A stretch of 64,000 nucleotides of DNA from Dehalococcoidia bacterium (GTDB taxonomy: Bacteria > Chloroflexota > Dehalococcoidia > UBA6926). Positions within the stretch are counted from its first letter, which is position 1, and every line of letters begins with the position of its first letter. The stretch lies in contig OZ244736.1 of assembly GCA_965219405.1 (NCBI GenBank), positions 1,705,443-1,769,442 on the forward strand, written 5' to 3'. The notes beneath the pieces were generated by a model. It saw only the letters and a list, made by a program, of their open reading frames with translations, did not search any database and was not told where the DNA came from. Of the stretch, positions 1 through 6,961 are shown piece by piece. Both the position numbers and the translations under genes were made by a program.

Positions 1-182
1 CGCCGGGCGCGGTACTTGAGCACTGCGATAGTCAGGAAACCCTGAACACCGATGAAAATGACAACGGCGATCCAGAATACAAAGAGGAAGAGATCCTGCT
101 GGCTCTGGGATACGTCACCCGCCGGATTCAACGTGCTCTGCGGCAACGCCAACTGGCAGCCTGAGAGGAGGACGACGGCCAT
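1..182 (-). CDS. cytochrome c oxidase subunit II, N-terminal part (gene continues beyond window start)
   Basis: The reverse-complement of 1-182 translates to MAVVLLSGCQLALPQ...DLFLFVFWIAVVIFIGVQGFLTIAVLKYRARR. This has a lipobox-like LSGC followed by the COX2-type first TM helix and basic stop-transfer. A possible GTG start lies a few codons upstream. The gene is partial. Confidence 0.5.
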   Translation of the reverse strand, partial: MAVVLLSGCQLALPQSTLNPAGDVSQSQQDLFLFVFWIAVVIFIGVQGFLTIAVLKYRAR

Positions 183-392
183 GAAAACCGTCAGCACCCC
201 GATTAGTTGAATCCCTTTCCCCATTCGGATGAGCCTGTTCAGAGCGATACCTCGACAGTTAATTTTGGCCCGTATGTTGTACCTGCACGGCATTTTGAGG
301 ATGGACAGTGCCGCGACATTGCGAGTCTATCTGTGTGCGCGAAATTGTGTCAAGCGTCACAATCGGCAAGAACTGACCCCTATAATGGCCGC

Positions 393-1070
393 ATGGACGT
401 TCGAGTGAGGCTGTTTGCGGCACTGCGCGAGGCGGTGGGCGCTTCGGAAATCAGCGTTGAGATTCCGGAGGGCGAGCCGGTCTCGCGCTTGCTGGGCGAG
501 GCGCAGCGGCAACATCCGGCGCTGGCGAACCGCTGCGACGGCGTTGTTGTCGCCATTAACCAGGAGTATGTCGATCAGTCAACCACTATCTCCGCGGGCG
601 ATGAAGTCGCGCTGATTCCGCCGGTGAGTGGGGGGGCCGTCTCCGAGGCGGAGGCCGTGCAGGTTAGAGTGACGCCTGATCCACTGGACGCCCTGAGGAT
701 CACAGAGTCGCTCAAGACTTCGTCCGACGGTGCAGTTCTTACGTTTGAGGGCATCGTGCGGGACAACAATCTGGGGCGGCACGTGTTGTTCCTTGAATAC
801 GAGGCATACCCGGAGATGGCTGAGGGCGTGTTGCAGAAGATTGGGCGGGAAACGCTCGAGGATTTCGATATTGGCAGCATCGCTTTATGGCATCGGACAG
901 GACGACTTGAGATTGGAGAGACATCCCTTGTTGTGGCCGTGGCCTCGCCGCACCGGCGCGCGGCTTTTGACGCGTGCCGGGAGGCAGTGGAAAAGGTCAA
1001 GGCACTGGCGCCGGTCTGGAAACGCGAGGTTTGGGACGGCGGTTCAGAGTGGCTACGGGGAGCGGGATAG
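393..1070 (+). CDS. molybdopterin synthase MoaD-MoaE fusion (MoaX-like)
   Basis: An 81-aa MoaD module (MDVRVRLFAALREAVG...ISAGDEVALIPPVSGG) ends in Gly-Gly. It is followed in frame by a MoaE catalytic domain (VLTFEGIVRDNN...HVLFLEYEAYPEMAE...SLVVAVASPHRRAAFDACREAVEKVKALAPVWKRE). The ORF track starts at 207, but a conserved MoaD start is at 393. Confidence 0.8.
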   Translation: MDVRVRLFAALREAVGASEISVEIPEGEPVSRLLGEAQRQHPALANRCDGVVVAINQEYVDQSTTISAGDEVALIPPVSGGAVSEAEAVQVRVTPDPLDALRITESLKTSSDGAVLTFEGIVRDNNLGRHVLFLEYEAYPEMAEGVLQKIGRETLEDFDIGSIALWHRTGRLEIGETSLVVAVASPHRRAAFDACREAVEKVKALAPVWKREVWDGGSEWLRGAG

Positions 1071-1490
1071 GGTCTCGTCCTCATCATCACTACCCGCCTT
1101 ATATAGAACCGAGGCGACTTCCCGAATACGGGTCAGGCTGGCAGACGCGTAATCAGTGGCCTCATACCGTTGAATCTGCTGTTCCTTGACATGCAGCTTT
1201 TGGGCCAGGTCCTTTTGACTTAGGCCGCGAGAAATGCGGGCCTTTATCAGGACATCCGGCAACTGAGAGATGACGTCTAGCTGAACAGGCTCGAAATGGC
1301 CAGCTTTCAAGGATTCATATTCCTGCAGTTGATCCTCCAGGTCAGCCACCTGGCTACGAATGGCATCTTCCTGCGCCTTGGCAATAAGGGGGTGGGCCGC
1401 AGCGGGGTTCTGCTTGAGGTTTTCAAGCGTCCTGGCAAATCCCTCCACCTGCGCCTTTGTGATTCTGTATTGCCGTTCATTCTTAATCAT
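1053..1490 (-). CDS. XRE-family helix-turn-helix protein, putative antitoxin/regulator of the upstream nucleotidyltransferase-fold gene
   Basis: HTH_XRE signature RISRGLSQKDLAQKLHVKEQQIQRYE in the C-terminal half, with a coiled N-terminal region. The ATG at 1490 overlaps the stop of the upstream gene by 4 nt (ATGA). The ORF track gives a longer alternative to 1574. Confidence 0.6.
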   Translation of the reverse strand: MIKNERQYRITKAQVEGFARTLENLKQNPAAAHPLIAKAQEDAIRSQVADLEDQLQEYESLKAGHFEPVQLDVISQLPDVLIKARISRGLSQKDLAQKLHVKEQQIQRYEATDYASASLTRIREVASVLYKAGSDDEDETLSRSP

Positions 1491-1927
1491 TCCAAGCCTC
1501 CCAAATCTATGGCCACAATTCCCTTGCGCCTTCCGGTTTCCCTGTCTGTCTGAAAGAAATCCAAGAAAGACCAACCACCCAAATTGGCAACCGTGGTTGA
1601 TGGAAACATCTCACCCATGTACTTCGCCTTCTGCGCTGCCCGTTCCCTATCAAACGTCAGGAGCACCGGGTCTAGAAGCTCCGGATCAACGCCGGTTTCG
1701 TCCCAGCAGGCATCGAAATCATTGGGCTCCTTCTTAGAGGTGACGAAACTTCCGTTGAGCCACACAGTCCTGCATCCGGCTGCCTTGAGGATCCGGAGCG
1801 CAGCCCACAGCCCCACCAGCAGCATCCGCCTGTGCATGTTGTAGCCATAGCGACCCGCCAGTTCCTCCCAGTTGCTCCAGTGAACCCCCTCGGGTAGGAG
1901 TCCGCTCGCATCCAACTCAGGCAACAT
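1487..1927 (-). CDS. minimal nucleotidyltransferase-fold protein (pol-beta superfamily GS..DxD motif), putative toxin/effector
   Basis: WLNGSFVTSKKEPNDFDACWDE fits the hG[GS]-x9-13-DhD nucleotidyltransferase signature, with further acidic residues downstream. The protein is 146 aa and translationally coupled to the XRE gene. Confidence 0.55.
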   Translation of the reverse strand: MLPELDASGLLPEGVHWSNWEELAGRYGYNMHRRMLLVGLWAALRILKAAGCRTVWLNGSFVTSKKEPNDFDACWDETGVDPELLDPVLLTFDRERAAQKAKYMGEMFPSTTVANLGGWSFLDFFQTDRETGRRKGIVAIDLGGLE

Positions 1928-1936
1928 TACACAACA

Positions 1937-1965
1937 ATATTATTGTGTTGATGGAAGAGTGTCAA
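1937..1965 (-). promoter_or_regulatory. sigma70-like promoter (TTGACA-17-TAATAT) with overlapping imperfect palindrome (1928-1950) directly upstream of the NTase-XRE module
   Basis: Minus-strand read: cTTGACActcttccatcaacacaaTAATATtgttgtgtaATG. It has a -35 hexamer, a 17-nt spacer, a -10 hexamer and a near-leaderless start. The dyad CACAACAATAT/TATTGTGTTG spans -10 to the start codon, suggesting an autoregulatory operator. Confidence 0.4.
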
Positions 1966-1989
1966 GGACGGATGAGACGGCAGCTTTGA

Positions 1990-3759
1990 CTAGACGAGTC
2001 TCTTCGTCATGGTCACGTGCTCAATGCCGGCTTCCATGAACGTCTCACCGTGTTCGGCATAGCCCGCCTGTGCGTAGAAGCCCTTGACGTAGGTCTGGGC
2101 ATGGAGGAGGACCTGCACAAAGCCGCGTTCGCGGGCCGCATTCTCTAGCGTCGCCAGAATCCGGTCGCCTATTGCCCGCCGCCTGAGGTCCTGCCGGACG
2201 GCCATGCGGCCAATGCGGCACGTTTCCTCGTCCTCATCCGTTAGCAGACGACCCGTGCCGACAACCACATTCCCGATAAACGCAACAGCGTGGACGGCAT
2301 GTCCATCCCGCCCGTCCCACTCCTCATCGGGGTCCACATTCTGCTCATCGATGAAGACGACGCGGCGGAGGGCAAAAATCGCCTCCATGTCGTCTGTTTG
2401 GGCGATGCGGACCACCACGTCCGCCTCATCATCCGCAGTAGCTCCCTGCCCCATCTGATCCGCGTTGATGATCTCACGAGCAGCCTGCATGAGCACCGCA
2501 CGCCGCCCTGTGGCAACTGATGACTTGTCCATATAAAGGCCAAGGGCTTGTTCAGGCTCAAGCGACTCAATTGCCATGCCGCGGTCAAGGCGGGTTCGCG
2601 TTCTATCCGGCGTGTCGATTTGAACCGTAATGCCTGAGACGACGTGCGCGCCAGCTTGCCGCAGTGCGTTGCGAATGCGGACACGGTCCACTTCGCCCGC
2701 GAGTTCGGCGGGAGCCTGGATTTCCACGCGGGTTACGGCATCACGCACGTCTGCAGCCGCAAGGCGGGTGGCAATCGTTCCCATCACGTCCTGCTCGCCT
2801 GCGTGGACGGCGATCTTGATTGTCTTGAACGGGCGAGTCCACACGGGGTGGAATGACCATGCGGCGGCGCGGCGGCCGGGGGGGAGAGCTGGATCAAGGT
2901 CCACGACGCAGAATCCCTTGCCGTCATTCTCCTCGGAGAAATCAACGCGATGGATGCTCCCGGAATAGACAACGGGCGGGGCGTCTGCAATCAGTTGGTG
3001 GCGGTGGATGTGGCCCAGGGCGGCGTAGTCGATGGGGTGCGTTTGGAACGCGCTGGGCAGCAGCAAGTAGTCGTTGCCCATCATCATGCTGCGTTCGTGG
3101 CCGATGGTGGCTGTGGTGGCGGTGGCGTGGGCAGAGAGGATGGACGGCACGTTTGGGTCAAGTTCTCCGGCCATGCGGTTGATTTCATTGCTGAGGAAAC
3201 TCTGCATCCACTCGTTAACCTCAGCGGCGCTCTTTCCGTGCAGTTCTGCGCGCGTGACAGCGGAACTGCGGCGCAGCCACGGAACGGCAACAATCTGGAC
3301 GGGGCCGGCCGCGGTTTCAATGCGGTGGACGGCGAGGCGAGATGCAACTGTGACGTTATCGACGGCGAGCGCGTCAAAGATGTCCAGCGCAGTCGCCCTG
3401 CCCCCCGTATTGGGCACGTCATGGTTTCCGGTGAGGAGAAAGACGGGGATTCCGGCGAGGGCGAGGCGGCTGATGCGGCGGGCGAATTCTCGCTGGTGGG
3501 TCTGGGAGGGATCACGGGAGCGATAAGCGTCTCCGGAAAAGACAACGAGATCGGCGCGGGGCTCGGTCAGCGCGAAGTTGACGAGTTCATCGAGGGCACG
3601 GAGGGCATCAATGAGGCGAGACGGCATCCCGGTGTAGGTGGCGGCGCGATTGACGCCCGGAGCGAACGATTCCGGCAGCGTGTTGAGTTCGTCTGAGGTG
3701 ACGGGGCGACTGTGGGTCTCAACACCGACGTGGGCGTCGGCAAAGTGGATGATTCGCAT
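1990..3759 (-). CDS. SbcD/Mre11-type metallophosphoesterase nuclease fused to a C-terminal GNAT N-acetyltransferase domain
   Basis: The N-terminus has calcineurin-like motifs: MRIIHFADAHVG, VVFSGDAYRSRDP, LLTGNHD, SAHATA, GHIH. The last ~150 aa form a GNAT domain (VVRIAQTDDMEAIFALRRVVFIDEQ...RIGRMAVRQDLRRRAIGDRILATLENAARERGF...YAQAGY). No sbcC is adjacent. Confidence 0.7.
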   Translation of the reverse strand: MRIIHFADAHVGVETHSRPVTSDELNTLPESFAPGVNRAATYTGMPSRLIDALRALDELVNFALTEPRADLVVFSGDAYRSRDPSQTHQREFARRISRLALAGIPVFLLTGNHDVPNTGGRATALDIFDALAVDNVTVASRLAVHRIETAAGPVQIVAVPWLRRSSAVTRAELHGKSAAEVNEWMQSFLSNEINRMAGELDPNVPSILSAHATATTATIGHERSMMMGNDYLLLPSAFQTHPIDYAALGHIHRHQLIADAPPVVYSGSIHRVDFSEENDGKGFCVVDLDPALPPGRRAAAWSFHPVWTRPFKTIKIAVHAGEQDVMGTIATRLAAADVRDAVTRVEIQAPAELAGEVDRVRIRNALRQAGAHVVSGITVQIDTPDRTRTRLDRGMAIESLEPEQALGLYMDKSSVATGRRAVLMQAAREIINADQMGQGATADDEADVVVRIAQTDDMEAIFALRRVVFIDEQNVDPDEEWDGRDGHAVHAVAFIGNVVVGTGRLLTDEDEETCRIGRMAVRQDLRRRAIGDRILATLENAARERGFVQVLLHAQTYVKGFYAQAGYAEHGETFMEAGIEHVTMTKRLV

Positions 3760-3797
3760 GAGTAGTGGGAAAGAGCCCGCAGTAGCGCCGTGTTGCC

Positions 3798-5093
<1,296 letters not shown>

Positions 5094-5239
5094 ATCAGTC
5101 AGCGTCGGCTCAATGGTCACGTGGCGAGGCCTCCAACGGAATCTGGGCAATACTGCGCGGCGAGCGGCGCTGGGAGTGCCAGCGACGCTCAGCTATAAGG
5201 ATACAGGAGGGAGGGTGATGACAGGGGGATGTGGACCCG

Positions 5240-6061
5240 TCAACTACTTAGCACCGGTTGGATAATCCCATACCGGTCCGCCGCCAATCCAACCGTCTCC
5301 TGAATTAAATCGACGGGAATCACTGTGGCAAGTCCAGAGTTCTCCTGGACGATTAGCCTGGGCGTTCCGGTCTGCTCACTCAGAGCTACGTCAACGAACG
5401 GCTGATAGGCAGCCACAACGCCAATCAACTTGGGATCCTGGCGCGTTTGGCCATACGAGAACATGGTTGGCTTGAGAATGACCGGGCCTCCGCTATTTCC
5501 CGGAAAGACAAACGAATCTATCAGGAATTCCTTGGAGCGACGCTCATAACAGTCTTGAATCCGGGCAATAACTCCCTGGCGCACGATCACGTAGTTCTGT
5601 TCAGCGCCGGCCAGTCCAAGCGGGAAGCCGAGCACAAATACTTCGTCTCCCTCAGAGACGGAACCGCTCTTCATAGACTCCAGGCGTTCCGTCTGTCCGT
5701 TTCCCGTGAAGAATGCCATCTTTACATCTTCAAGGGCTTGCCCAAGTGAGTCTATTAGCAGAACAGCAACATCTACATCCGGGTCAGTATGAAAGATCCA
5801 GTGATCGTTTGGTCCGCCATCATTCGGAGGCAACGGCAGTATCTTGGGAGCAGTCCCGGCAAGCGCATTGAAACGTATTTGCGGGCTGCGTATCCCCTTC
5901 ACAACGTGCCGATTAGTGACCAGGTAAACGTAGTATCGGCCCTGATTCCCCGAAGGCTGCCCATACAAGAAGCCGGAGGCAGCGTACCGTATGTTTCCGT
6001 CTTTGTCCGGCGTGCCTAGCGCGACGACTTTATCCAGGAATGCAGGCGGGATCAAGGACAT
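5240..6061 (-). CDS. cytoplasmic trypsin-like (S1/chymotrypsin fold) serine peptidase
   Basis: The catalytic triad context is present: LVTNRHVV (His), DVDVAVLLID (Asp), GNSGGPV (Ser). There is no signal peptide or TM segment. Confidence 0.7.
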   Translation of the reverse strand: MSLIPPAFLDKVVALGTPDKDGNIRYAASGFLYGQPSGNQGRYYVYLVTNRHVVKGIRSPQIRFNALAGTAPKILPLPPNDGGPNDHWIFHTDPDVDVAVLLIDSLGQALEDVKMAFFTGNGQTERLESMKSGSVSEGDEVFVLGFPLGLAGAEQNYVIVRQGVIARIQDCYERRSKEFLIDSFVFPGNSGGPVILKPTMFSYGQTRQDPKLIGVVAAYQPFVDVALSEQTGTPRLIVQENSGLATVIPVDLIQETVGLAADRYGIIQPVLSS

Positions 6062-6302
6062 TCTGGTTTCTCCTCACGGATCCGAGGCAGGTATTTCTAC
6101 TATCAATTATCGCAAGAGGTAGCAAGAGTTCTCCTGATTGCGGAATCGCGGTGAAGGCATGCTTTCGGCAGAAGGAGGGGAGTGCGGTACGAGGTTGGGC
6201 TGCGCAATGCGTATCAGATTCCCGCATTCGCGGGAATGTCGGTGATGGGGGCGGGAATGAGGGAGTGACCCTTCGACTGTGCTCAGGGTGAACGGGCGGA
6301 GG

Positions 6303-6659
6303 TTAGTCCAGGCCGCGTTTGTCGAGGATCTTGTCGACTTCGCCTTCGCGGGCCTGGCCGATCATTTCCTTGACGCGGTCAGGCATCTCGATGCCCGCCT
6401 CGTCCATGCGCTTCTCAGCCCATCGCCCGATGTTTGACGGGTCACGCCAGTAGTCGTGGCCGGGGGCGTCGGGATCACCGGAGGCCTCGTGTCGAGAGGC
6501 GGTGGAGCGGACGTATGCGGCGCGGGACATAACCTTCTCGGTCTTGTTGGAGCCGCAGTGGGCGCATTCCTGCTCCGTCGGCAACTCTTCCGGCATGACC
6601 TTATAGAAGGTGCTGGAGCGTTTGCCACATTCGTTGCACGTGAATTCGTATATGGGCAT
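6303..6659 (-). CDS. FmdB-family zinc-ribbon protein
   Basis: MPIYEFTCNECG...CAHCGS gives the CxxC...CxxC FmdB signature. Confidence 0.75.
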   Translation of the reverse strand: MPIYEFTCNECGKRSSTFYKVMPEELPTEQECAHCGSNKTEKVMSRAAYVRSTASRHEASGDPDAPGHDYWRDPSNIGRWAEKRMDEAGIEMPDRVKEMIGQAREGEVDKILDKRGLD

Positions 6660-6697
6660 CGTGTCACCGCCCTCCCTGCCGCGACTCTGCGCCTCGG

Positions 6698-6961
6698 CTA
6701 GTAAAGTCCGTCATCGAAGTAGCCGTCATCCATCCCATCGTAATCGTCATCGCTCGGCGCGTCATCAAACGCGGAGAGGCGGTCATAGTCTCGGTATAGG
6801 TCCTGCCTCGAACGAACGACGGCGACGCGGGAGATCTTGCGCCTTAGGGATGTTCCCCCGCAGTTGCGGCAGGTGGGGTCACCGATGGGCGCGGAGACGG
6901 AGCGCGTGAAAACGCTCGTGTCGCGACCGCATTCCTCGCATTTGAATTCATAGATTGGCAT
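6698..6961 (-). CDS. FmdB-family zinc-ribbon protein (second tandem paralogue, acidic tail)
   Basis: MPIYEFKCEECG...CRNCGG, with a D/Y-rich C-terminus. Confidence 0.75.
   Translation of the reverse strand: MPIYEFKCEECGRDTSVFTRSVSAPIGDPTCRNCGGTSLRRKISRVAVVRSRQDLYRDYDRLSAFDDAPSDDDYDGMDDGYFDDGLY

What the first reader, a model, noticed from the sequence alone, without database searches (positions are those of the whole stretch)
1053..1965. Self-contained bicistronic module: minimal nucleotidyltransferase-fold protein + XRE-HTH protein with own consensus promoter and palindromic operator (toxin-antitoxin / defence-like)
A 146-aa protein carries the pol-beta superfamily signature (GSFVTSKKEPNDFD = GS-x9-DxD). 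A 145-aa XRE-type HTH protein overlaps its stop by ATGA. Immediately upstream on the minus strand there is a textbook TTGACA-17nt-TAATAT promoter whose -10 is embedded in an imperfect dyad (CACAACAATAT/TATTGTGTTG) that abuts the start codon, implying a leaderless or near-leaderless, autoregulated transcript. The architecture (small enzyme + DNA-binding partner, translational coupling, operator over the promoter) is that of type II/VII toxin-antitoxin or abortive-infection pairs. Here the NTase is upstream and the HTH downstream, which differs from classic MNT-HEPN or AbiEi/AbiEii layouts. It sits between housekeeping genes, just downstream of an SbcD-GNAT gene.
Basis: partly seen in the sequence, partly recalled or inferred. 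Interest (0 to 1): 0.6.

Follow-up and report, generated by a model that had tools for sequence, protein, structure and literature searches.

The report
Mobile nucleotidyltransferase–repressor toxin-antitoxin-like gene pair
This is a small, horizontally mobile two-gene cassette, a tiny nucleotidyltransferase-fold enzyme of an uncharacterised family (DUF6932) plus its own DNA-binding partner and a strikingly conserved operator, which looks like a toxin–antitoxin or defence module but has never been tested.

Summary

The 145-aa partner (1053-1490) has a family-specific N-terminal domain and a 434-Cro-type XRE HTH. The ATGA overlap, the TTGACA-17-TAATAT promoter and the dyad are all present.

New here:
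- The pair is adjacent in at least 76 of 80 loci, from more than ten bacterial phyla and one archaeon.
- The operator ACACAA-N8-TTGTGT is present in 67 of 80 loci and usually ends 1-2 nt before the start codon.
- The NTase gene usually lacks a Shine-Dalgarno sequence; the partner usually has one.
- About a third of partners carry a C-terminal ImmA/IrrE peptidase (RmrA / PD-lambda-2B type).
- One identical protein sits in five or six different contexts, beside integrases, CBASS-like genes and AbiE.
- Decay is asymmetric: the NTase is often broken with the partner intact, but never intact without the partner's N-domain.

Best reading: an autorepressed, toxin-first type II TA-like module with a new NTase effector. 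Toxicity, substrate and defence are untested.

The parts
1487..1927 (-). Gene for the 146-aa DUF6932 protein, a minimal pol-beta-type nucleotidyltransferase fold and the presumed effector or toxin. Stop codon TGA at 1487-1489.
1712..1753 (-). Codons for G59-S60-x9-D70-F-D72, the nucleotidyltransferase signature hG[GS]-x9-13-Dh[DE]h.
   Evidence: Read directly from the sequence. Conserved in 300-306 of 306 homologues.
1610..1612 (-). Codon for E106, the candidate third catalytic carboxylate, on the strand at residues 106-109 of the model.
   Evidence: E in 299 and D in 6 of 306 homologues. Strand E106-109 in the model. The catalytic role is inferred.
1053..1490 (-). Gene for the 145-aa partner: an N-terminal family-specific domain plus an XRE HTH. 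Presumed antitoxin and autorepressor. Stop codon at 1053-1055.
   Evidence: ORF from the ATG at 1490. HTH_3, E 6.8e-9. A homologue lies immediately downstream of the NTase gene in 76 of 80 loci by tblastn, and ORF inspection shows a divergent or truncated partner in the other four.
1275..1490 (-). Partner N-terminal domain, residues 1 to about 72 (MIKNERQYRITKAQ ... EYE.L..G). It matches no Pfam, NCBIfam, PHROG or PDB family. Presumed NTase-binding and neutralising domain.
   Evidence: Conserved across phyla: M1, I2, N4, R6, Q7 and Y58 are invariant. It is retained when the HTH is lost, in L030 and L054-56. No family hit.
1098..1265 (-). XRE / 434-Cro-type helix-turn-helix domain, residues about 76-131, with recognition helix KEQQIQRYE.
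   Evidence: Pfam HTH_3, residues 82-129. The best solved relative by profile is 434 Cro, E 6.5e-5, followed by MBF1, HipB and HigA.
1487..1490 (-). ATGA start/stop overlap, implying translational coupling.
   Evidence: Sequence. The same 4-nt overlap is present in most of the 80 loci.
1497..1501 (-). GGAGG Shine-Dalgarno sequence 6 nt upstream of the partner's ATG, inside the NTase codons for ...GGL.
   Evidence: Sequence. A match of at least 4 nt precedes the partner start in 62 of 71 loci, and of at least 5 nt in 42 of 71. Before the NTase start, a match of at least 5 nt occurs in only 6 of 71.
1960..1965 (-). -35 hexamer TTGACA.
   Evidence: Promoter scan. TTGAC is conserved at this position in most aligned upstream regions.
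1937..1942 (-). -10 hexamer TAATAT, at the centre of the operator dyad and 9 nt upstream of the ATG.
   Evidence: Promoter scan. The equivalent TAnnAT sits inside the palindrome in related loci.
1929..1948 (.). Operator: 20-bp dyad ACACAA-N8-TTGTGT overlapping the -10 hexamer, ending 1 nt before the NTase start codon.
   Evidence: Inverted repeat. Unique in the window, 0.04 expected. Present upstream of the NTase gene in 67 of 80 loci. Co-occurs with the QQ[IV]QRYE recognition helix, 59 of 66 against 3 of 13, Fisher p 2.9e-6, not corrected for phylogeny.

Best explanation
This is an autorepressed, toxin-first, type II toxin-antitoxin-like cassette that moves horizontally.

Shown:
- The first gene encodes a 146-aa minimal nucleotidyltransferase-fold protein of the uncharacterised DUF6932 family, with an intact G-S...D-x-D...E catalytic set.
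- The second gene overlaps it by ATGA. It encodes a two-domain partner: a family-specific N-terminal domain and a 434-Cro-type XRE HTH.
- A sigma-70-like promoter has its -10 hexamer inside a conserved ACACAA-N8-TTGTGT dyad, which ends 1 nt before the NTase start codon.

Inferred:
- A partner dimer binds the dyad through its KEQQIQRYE recognition helices and shuts off its own promoter.
- The transcript is leaderless or nearly so. The NTase, with no Shine-Dalgarno sequence, is therefore translated poorly, while the partner (GGAGG plus coupling) is translated well. This would keep the neutraliser in excess although its gene comes second.
- The partner's N-terminal domain binds and neutralises the NTase.
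- When the partner is lost or degraded, the free NTase nucleotidylates a cellular target and arrests growth. In long-form relatives the fused ImmA/IrrE peptidase may do the degrading.
- The target is unknown. The family is acidic (median pI 4.9), which argues weakly for a protein or small-molecule target rather than bulk RNA.
- The biological role would be addiction or abortive-infection-type defence.

For: Pairing: tblastn finds the partner immediately downstream in 76 of 80 loci, and ORF inspection finds a truncated or divergent partner in the other four. The loci span Chloroflexota, Latescibacterota, Planctomycetota, Cyanobacteria, Acidobacteriota, Bacteroidota, Proteobacteria, Bacillota, Verrucomicrobiota, Armatimonadota and a Bathyarchaeota MAG. 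Most have the 4-nt overlap.

Operator: the palindrome is present in 67 of 80 loci. It co-varies with the HTH recognition-helix motif.

Translation asymmetry.

Mobility: one identical 147-aa protein, always with its partner, occurs in five or six different neighbourhoods. These lie beside phage integrases, a SMODS/ThiF/JAB cluster, AbiEi/AbiEii and a DDE transposase. The family is on 30 plasmids. There is a GC dip over the module.

Decay asymmetry: the NTase is disrupted with the partner intact in 8 loci. An intact NTase lacking the partner's N-domain occurs in 0 loci. Partners cut down to the N-domain alone still accompany an intact NTase in L030 and L054-56.

Kinship of the partner: the long forms match PD-lambda-2B (E 7.5e-84) and RmrA. 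These are the Xre-peptidase proteins of experimentally shown TA/defence systems (PMC9519451; PMC10440598).
Against: - No toxicity, neutralisation, DNA-binding or defence data exist for any member.
- The nearest structural neighbours, MNT proteins, are antitoxins rather than toxins in HEPN-MNT systems.
- In PD-lambda-2 the Xre-peptidase protein, not the upstream gene, was the toxic one.
- A PDC-M63AB locus gave no phage protection in E. coli NILS69.
- In this window's lineage the module sits stably between housekeeping genes (L001-L006, L097), so it need not be doing anything selfish there.
- Some apparent NTase disruptions may be assembly errors in long-read MAGs.
- The transcription start site is not mapped.
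Confidence: 0.55

Rival explanations
1. The roles are inverted, or the system is type VII-like. The DUF6932 NTase would be the protective or regulatory enzyme, like MntA acting on HepT. It would nucleotidylate its partner, for example on one of the invariant tyrosines Y58, Y109 or Y114. The Xre(-peptidase) partner would be the harmful or signalling component.
For: - The nearest structural neighbours are MNT antitoxins: 1no5, 8xeh, 1wot, 5yep.
- The family is small and acidic, like MNT proteins.
- In PD-lambda-2 the Xre-peptidase B protein alone was toxic and the upstream A gene rescued it (PMC9519451).
- The L058 partner matches PD-lambda-2B at E 7.5e-84.
- The partner has invariant tyrosines.
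Against: - The window's partner has no peptidase or other effector domain, only the N-domain and the HTH.
- In 8 loci the NTase is disrupted while the partner stays intact, including one long-form partner (L073). A toxic partner should not tolerate that.
- No intact NTase lacks the partner N-domain.
Confidence: 0.17
2. This is not a toxin-antitoxin pair. It would be an accessory enzyme with a dedicated repressor: the NTase modifies an exogenous compound (as aminoglycoside or lincosamide nucleotidyltransferases do) or makes a nucleotide signal, and the XRE protein only controls its expression.
For: - The top Foldseek hits are AadA, ANT(9) and ANT(4').
- Weak capH/capP-like matches to the partner recall CBASS transcriptional control.
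- The module is stably inherited between housekeeping genes in this lineage.
Against: - ANT enzymes and CD-NTases have additional substrate-binding domains that a 146-aa protein lacks.
- A conserved partner N-domain persists without the HTH (L030, L054-56). A pure repressor model does not explain that.
- The 4-nt overlap, the cassette-like mobility, the decay asymmetry and the defence-island neighbours are typical of TA modules.
Confidence: 0.13
3. The NTase-like protein is catalytically dead or structural, for example an adaptor or anti-adaptor, and the pair is a decaying remnant with no current function in this genome.
For: - Many degraded copies exist.
- A profile of close homologues gave a non-significant match to the anti-adaptor IraD, E 0.44.
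Against: - Both ORFs in the window are intact, and they are 79-98% identical to intact copies in sister genomes.
- The catalytic residues are essentially invariant over 306 sequences.
Confidence: 0.05

Closest known systems
HigBA / MqsRA-type type II TA operons (toxin first, XRE-HTH antitoxin second)
   Same: Gene order is toxin then antitoxin. The genes are overlapping or coupled. The antitoxin is built from a neutralising N-terminal part and a C-terminal XRE HTH. A palindromic operator overlaps the promoter. HigA and HipB are among the solved relatives of the HTH.
   Different: The upstream protein is a nucleotidyltransferase fold, not a RelE/HigB or MqsR RNase. The partner's N-domain has no detectable relative. 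The transcript is near-leaderless, and the operator is conserved across phyla.
RosmerTA (RmrT/RmrA) and PD-lambda-2, the Xre-ImmA/IrrE peptidase systems
   Same: In about a third of family members the partner is N-domain + HTH + Peptidase_M78. It matches PD-lambda-2B (E 7.5e-84 for L058) and RmrA models. An upstream toxin-like gene is co-expressed with an Xre-peptidase fusion, as described by Makarova 2009 (PMC2701414) and Vassallo 2022 (PMC9519451).
   Different: The window's partner has no peptidase domain. The upstream gene is DUF6932, which matched no PADLOC model other than PDC-M63A (no RmrT or HigB-like model). There is no third gene. The extra N-terminal domain is absent from the PD-lambda-2B profile match, which starts at residue 81.
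MenAT / AbiE (DUF1814 nucleotidyltransferase toxins)
   Same: A pol-beta-fold NTase would be the growth-arresting component of a two-gene module. An AbiE pair even sits next to one family member (L094).
   Different: There is no sequence relationship: no PF08843 hit and hhalign probability 0.3%. DUF6932 is half the size. Gene order is reversed. The partner is an XRE protein, not an AbiEi/COG5340 wHTH protein.
HEPN-MNT (HepT/MntA) type VII TA
   Same: The closest structural neighbours are minimal NTases of about 100-140 aa with the same G-S...D-x-D core (2rff, 1no5, 8xeh, 1wot, 5yep). Both are acidic small proteins encoded first in a bicistronic operon.
   Different: No NTP_transf_2 HMM match. 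There is no HEPN partner. In HEPN-MNT the NTase is the antitoxin.
PADLOC phage-defence candidate PDC-M63 (A component)
   Same: The NTase matches the PDC-M63A model over nearly its full length, E 1.4e-9. Three distant family members (L048, L058, L062) match too.
   Different: The match is weak (36 bits). The partner does not match a PDC-M63B model. PDC-M63AB is itself unverified and gave no defence in E. coli NILS69 (PMC12409345).

Membership tests
Pfam PF22014 DUF6932 | Whole-protein HMM score above the gathering threshold of 27 bits, matched over the full length. | tested here: met
   123 bits, E 1.6e-35, residues 3-141 against profile positions 1-142 of 142.
pol-beta nucleotidyltransferase superfamily | Motif hG[GS]-x9-13-Dh[DE]h, plus a third carboxylate on the neighbouring strand. 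| tested here: met
   G59-S60-x9-D70-F-D72 and E106. Conserved in 299-306 of 306 homologues. Strands at residues 54-57, 72-75 and 106-109 in the model.
pol-beta nucleotidyltransferase superfamily | Alpha/beta NTase core fold. | tested here: inconclusive
   [not shown]
MNT (NTP_transf_2 / HEPN-MNT type VII TA) | Match to the NTP_transf_2-type HMM and an adjacent HEPN partner. | tested here: not met
   No such Pfam hit at E <= 1. The neighbour is an XRE HTH protein, not a HEPN protein.
MenT / AbiEii (DUF1814) | PF08843 match and an upstream AbiEi/MenA antitoxin. | tested here: not met
   No PF08843 hit. hhalign of the family profile against an AbiEii protein gives probability 0.3%. Gene order and partner both differ.
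RosmerTA | RmrA antitoxin with an HTH plus an ImmA/IrrE Zn-peptidase domain, next to an RmrT toxin. | tested here: not met
   The window's partner matches RmrA models only over its HTH (E 7e-6, residues 75-129) and has no peptidase domain. The NTase matches no PADLOC model other than PDC-M63A. Long-form relatives do carry Peptidase_M78.
PD-lambda-2 | Three genes: a HigB-like A, an Xre-peptidase B and a C component. | tested here: not met
   There are only two genes and the first is DUF6932. Only the partners of some relatives (L058) match PD-lambda-2B, E 7.5e-84. System description from PMC9519451.
PADLOC PDC-M63 | Both the A and the B components are present. | tested here: inconclusive
   A matched at E 1.4e-9, 36 bits. 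No B match for the partner at E <= 1.
Type II toxin-antitoxin module (generic) | A compact bicistronic operon, conserved as a pair, patchily distributed and mobile. | tested here: met
   At least 76 of 80 loci are paired, mostly with a 4-nt overlap. The pair occurs in more than ten phyla and on 30 plasmids. An identical protein is found in five or six contexts.
Type II toxin-antitoxin module (generic) | A DNA-binding antitoxin autoregulating through an operator at the promoter. | tested here: inconclusive
   A conserved dyad overlaps the -10 hexamer in 67 of 80 loci and co-varies with the recognition helix. Binding itself was not tested.
Type II toxin-antitoxin module (generic) | The toxin arrests growth, and the antitoxin neutralises it by direct binding. 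| not testable with these tools
   Only indirect evidence exists: the decay asymmetry of 8 against 0, and retention of the N-domain without the HTH.

The most novel reading that the evidence does not exclude
DUF6932 would be a new class of minimal nucleotidyltransferase effector with chemistry unlike MenT. The family has about 3,500 clusters at 50% identity and reaches from bacteria into archaea. The enzyme might nucleotidylate a protein, possibly its own Xre(-peptidase) partner, or a small molecule. It would be held in check by a previously unrecognised antitoxin domain. Its operon design (an ACACAA-N8-TTGTGT operator fused to a leaderless start) would be conserved across domains of life to set the toxin:antitoxin ratio through translation.
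Probability: 0.25. Interest if true: 0.7.

Novelty: new variant of a known kind. Interest (0 to 1): 0.5.

Why it matters
If the reading is right, a large and entirely uncharacterised protein family gets a testable function as a new nucleotidyltransferase toxin or effector. The family has at least 6,800 clusters at 90% identity and about 3,500 at 50%.

It would link classical toxin-first XRE antitoxin operons to the RosmerTA / PD-lambda-2 Xre-peptidase defence systems through a shared partner architecture.

It also gives an unusually clean regulatory model. The same 20-bp operator, promoter geometry and leaderless start are kept from Chloroflexota to a Bathyarchaeota MAG. That makes the operator-repressor pair easy to test and potentially useful as a portable genetic switch.

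If it turns out to be only another TA pair, the value is mainly in annotation.

Tried and rejected
- The first structure model, from 54 close homologues, was mediocre (pLDDT 73.5). A more diverse 112-sequence alignment gave pLDDT 94.2.
- Foldseek against AFDB50 could not be run because the library was unavailable. Foldseek against PDB gave no significant hit.
- I looked for an empty site (sbcD-GNAT next to moaDE without the module) by scanning metagenome contigs with the GNAT end of the upstream gene. Only one syntenic locus came back and it also carries the module. No empty site was found, so no cassette boundaries could be defined.
- I looked for informative domain fusions among the longer DUF6932 representatives (230-366 aa). 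None had any other Pfam domain, so they are probably mis-called starts.
- Searching with the partner's N-domain alone returned only 32 short proteins. The three contexts I inspected were decayed modules, so this did not test whether the N-domain ever pairs with other toxins.
- Literature: a search for DUF6932 returned no papers. PDC-M63 appears in a single study, with a negative defence result.
- tblastn against the phage collection found no match, although weak PHROG matches exist for both proteins.
Full report
**1. What is in the sequence**

The minus strand of window 1053-1965 carries two overlapping ORFs.

- A 146-aa ORF runs from the ATG at 1927 to the TGA at 1487-1489.
- A 145-aa ORF runs from the ATG at 1490 to the stop at 1053-1055.
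- The two share the tetranucleotide ATGA at 1487-1490.

A GGAGG lies 6 nt upstream of the second ATG (1497-1501), inside the first gene.

Upstream of the first ATG, the promoter scan finds TTGACA (1965-1960), a 17-nt spacer and TAATAT (1942-1937). This matches 10 of 12 consensus positions. It accounts for both promoter-like hits in 800-2300 (17- and 18-nt spacer registers of the same site), where shuffles give 0.4 on average.

A 20-bp dyad at 1929-1948 has arms that are 90% complementary. It covers the -10 hexamer and stops one base before the ATG.

The flanking genes are a MoaD(ThiS)-MoaE fusion at 393-1070 (+) and a Metallophos(SbcD-like)-GNAT fusion at 1990-3759 (-). The 3' end of moaDE overlaps the partner's 3' end by 18 bp.

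**2. The first protein**

It is a full-length member of Pfam DUF6932 (PF22014): 123 bits against a cut-off of 27. It also matches the PADLOC phage-defence candidate model PDC-M63A weakly, E 1.4e-9. NCBIfam has no model for it. A literature search for DUF6932 returns nothing.

The family is large.

- More than 3,000 clusters at 90% identity match the single sequence.
- At least 6,800 match a profile of distant members.
- 3,556 clusters at 50% identity match in the exhaustive search.
- Nearly all are stand-alone proteins of about 146 aa. The few longer ones show no second domain.

Across 306 aligned homologues the catalytic residues are almost invariant.

| Residue | Count out of 306 |
|---|---|
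| G59 | 303 |
| S60 | 306 |
| D70 | 306 |
| D72 | D 300, E 6 |
| E106 | E 299, D 6 |

This is the G[S]-x9-D-x-[DE] signature plus a third carboxylate, as in pol-beta-type nucleotidyltransferases.

A first AlphaFold model from close homologues was mediocre (pLDDT 73.5). A 112-sequence alignment including distant members gave pLDDT 94.2 and pTM 0.88.

I read this as a genuine but highly divergent NTase fold. The ranking is consistent; the scores are weak.

It is not an MNT by HMM and not a DUF1814 MenT/AbiEii protein. There are no such Pfam hits, and hhalign probability against an AbiEii protein is 0.3%.

The family is acidic, with median pI 4.9.

**3. The second protein**

Residues about 76-131 form an XRE-type HTH (Pfam HTH_3, E 6.8e-9). 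The best solved relative by profile is 434 Cro, followed by MBF1, HipB and HigA.

Residues 1 to about 72 (MIKNERQYRITKAQ...EYE.L..G) match no Pfam, NCBIfam, PHROG or PDB family. They are nonetheless strongly conserved: M1, I2, N4, R6, Q7 and Y58 are invariant in a 17-sequence cross-phylum alignment. The recognition helix KEQQIQRYE is nearly invariant as well.

**4. Conservation of the pair**

A scan of one genome per species found 80 loci encoding a DUF6932 relative. In 76 of them, tblastn finds a homologue of the whole partner, N-domain included, immediately downstream. Most have the same 4-nt overlap.

The hosts are Dehalococcoidia and other Chloroflexota, Latescibacterota, Planctomycetota, Cyanobacteria, Acidobacteriota, Bacteroidota, Alpha-, Gamma- and Deltaproteobacteria, Bacillota, Verrucomicrobiota, Armatimonadota and one Bathyarchaeota MAG.

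The four loci where tblastn found nothing turned out to carry either a partner cut down to its N-domain (L054-56) or a divergent long partner (L064).

The partner comes in two forms.

- The short form is about 135-160 aa, as in the window.
- The long form is about 400-486 aa and adds a C-terminal Peptidase_M78 (ImmA/IrrE) domain with HExxH. It is found in about a third of loci.

Long forms match PADLOC PD-lambda-2B (E 7.5e-84 for L058) and RmrA models.

These are the Xre-peptidase proteins of experimentally supported TA/defence systems.

- In PD-lambda-2, an upstream HigB-like gene accompanies an Xre-peptidase fusion (PMC9519451).
- In RosmerTA, diverse toxins pair with an HTH-ImmA protease antitoxin (PMC10440598; bioRxiv 10.1101/2022.05.11.491447).
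- This association was first noted computationally by Makarova et al. 2009 (PMC2701414).

**5. The operator and promoter are conserved far beyond the coding sequence**

Aligning the 80 nt upstream of the NTase start shows the same design in loci whose proteins are only 45-60% identical. The design is TTGAC, about 17 nt, then a TAnnAT-like -10 embedded in ACACAA-N8-TTGTGT, then the start codon 1-2 nt later.

- The pattern, with at most 2 mismatches and mostly 0, lies directly upstream in 61 of 80 loci, including the archaeal one.
- Five more loci have a perfect copy about 100 nt upstream with a normal leader. One more has it upstream of an NTase remnant. The total is 67 of 80.
- In 609 kb of locus DNA there are only 74 matches in all.
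- In the 64-kb window there is exactly one, against 0.04 expected.

Presence of the palindrome tracks the recognition-helix motif QQ[IV]QRYE: 59 of 66 loci with the motif against 3 of 13 without it. Fisher p is 2.9e-6, not corrected for phylogeny. The Bacillota loci with a diverged helix lack the palindrome, and so do the loci that lost the HTH. This is good indirect evidence that the partner binds this site.

**6. Translation signals are asymmetric**

The partner's start is preceded by a match of at least 4 nt to AAGGAGGTGAT in 62 of 71 loci, and of at least 5 nt in 42 of 71. The NTase start has a match of at least 5 nt in only 6 of 71, and those are mainly the loci where the operator sits further upstream.

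With only 9 nt between the -10 hexamer and the ATG, the NTase mRNA must be leaderless or nearly so.

I infer that this keeps NTase synthesis low relative to the coupled, SD-driven partner. That would solve the stoichiometry problem of a toxin-first operon. This is inference: no transcription start site is mapped.

**7. Mobility and neighbourhoods**

One identical 147-aa family member, always with its 144-aa partner, occurs in five or six unrelated neighbourhoods (the sixth contig is too short to characterise).

- Between two phage integrases, next to a SMODS/ThiF/JAB (CBASS-like) cluster.
- Next to AbiEi/AbiEii.
- Next to a DDE transposase and an integrase.
- Next to an AraC regulator.
- Next to a P-type ATPase.

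Thirty plasmids carry a homologue. On an Agrobacterium pAt plasmid the pair follows a reverse transcriptase and a helicase. No phage genome matched by tblastn, although weak PHROG matches exist for both proteins.

In the window's own lineage the module is fixed between sbcD-GNAT and moaDE (L001-L006, L040 and L097, at 79-86% identity; P0001 is 98% identical but its context was not examined). GC dips from about 0.61 to about 0.53 over the module, but similar dips occur elsewhere in the window.

An attempt to find an empty site failed.

**8. Decay pattern**

The 80 loci were found through the NTase, so intact NTase genes were sampled regardless of partner. Their states are as follows.

- NTase disrupted, partner intact: 8 loci (L028, L040, L050, L073, L075, L076, L078, L079).
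- Both disrupted: 3 loci.
- NTase intact, partner cut down but keeping the N-domain: 2 independent cases (L030; L054-56).
- NTase intact, N-domain missing: none.

This asymmetry is what one expects if the NTase is harmful on its own, the N-domain neutralises it, and the HTH is only regulatory.

Two caveats apply. The numbers are small, and some disruptions may be errors in long-read MAG assemblies.

**9. Mechanism proposed, and alternatives**

The best-supported reading (about 0.55) is an autorepressed, toxin-first type II TA-like cassette. The DUF6932 NTase is the effector, the partner's N-domain the neutraliser and its HTH the autorepressor. A likely role is addiction or abortive-infection-type defence.

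The target is unknown. The acidic pI argues mildly against bulk RNA binding.

The main rival (about 0.17) inverts the roles, or makes the system type VII-like. The structural neighbours are MNT antitoxins, and in PD-lambda-2 the Xre-peptidase was the toxic protein. Against this, the window's partner has no effector domain, and partners survive loss of the NTase.

A plain regulator-plus-accessory-enzyme model (about 0.13) does not explain the N-domain or the decay asymmetry. A dead remnant (about 0.05) is contradicted by the invariant catalytic residues.

**10. Comparison with known systems and novelty**

The module works like HigBA/MqsRA-type operons. Through its long-form relatives it is kin to RosmerTA and PD-lambda-2. 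The effector is a nucleotidyltransferase fold, as in MenT/AbiEii and MNT, but it is a member of neither family. The defining features were tested and not met.

The only prior flag is the unverified PADLOC candidate PDC-M63. That model matches weakly, its B component is not matched, and the system showed no defence in one E. coli strain.

I therefore rate this a new variant of a known kind. It is a well-defined, very widespread, uncharacterised TA/defence-like module with a new effector family, a new antitoxin domain and an unusually conserved operator and leaderless design.

Interest is moderate (0.5). It is a solid and testable lead rather than a surprise in kind.

Noticed in passing
window 1990-3759 (-): The upstream gene encodes a 589-aa fusion of an SbcD-like calcineurin phosphoesterase (Metallophos, residues 1-253) with a C-terminal GNAT acetyltransferase (residues about 450-588). 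The fusion is conserved at 88% identity in L097. Its stop lies only 62 bp upstream of the NTase start, on the same strand, with no predicted terminator between them, so read-through into the module is possible.
   Followed up: partly
window 393-1070 (+) and 1053-1070: MoaD (ThiS) and MoaE are fused into one 225-aa ORF. Its 3' end overlaps the convergent 3' end of the HTH gene by 18 bp. No intrinsic terminator was predicted at this junction. The only nearby terminator-like site is at 1109-1125 (-), inside the HTH gene.
   Followed up: no
L001 4438-4875, compared with window 1053-1090: In the closest reference genome, the partner has a stop codon 9 codons before the window protein's end (GSDK*KETLSRAP). 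The acidic C-terminal tail that overlaps moaE therefore appears to be dispensable.
   Followed up: no
L054-L056, about 4435-4668, with IS-like ORFs downstream (L054 about 5482-5862): Three related Dehalococcoidia genomes carry an intact NTase plus a 77-aa partner consisting of the N-domain only. They have no operator palindrome. An IS5-like transposase fragment lies just downstream, which suggests truncation by insertion.
   Followed up: partly
L081 (Agrobacterium fabrum pAt2788b) 1-6813: The DUF6932 + long XRE pair is flanked upstream by a helicase and an RNA-directed DNA polymerase. Downstream lie a 'beta family protein' and an 'sce7726 family protein'. This is possibly a larger defence island or a multi-gene system.
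   Followed up: no
L091 9124-12444: A SMODS / ThiF / Prok-JAB (CBASS-like) cluster and two phage integrases lie beside a DUF6932-HTH pair. In L094 the pair abuts AbiEi/AbiEii and a Pkinase + AAA_16/TPR gene. In L103 a decayed pair sits near a Cas3-like helicase.
   Followed up: no
[not shown]
   Followed up: yes
window 3798-5150 (-) and 5240-6061 (-): These are a class II aminoacyl-tRNA synthetase (tRNA-synt_2b + HGTP_anticodon, GlyRS-like from its sequence) and a Trypsin_2 peptidase. They are ordinary housekeeping context, each with a local GC dip similar to the one over the module.
   Followed up: partly
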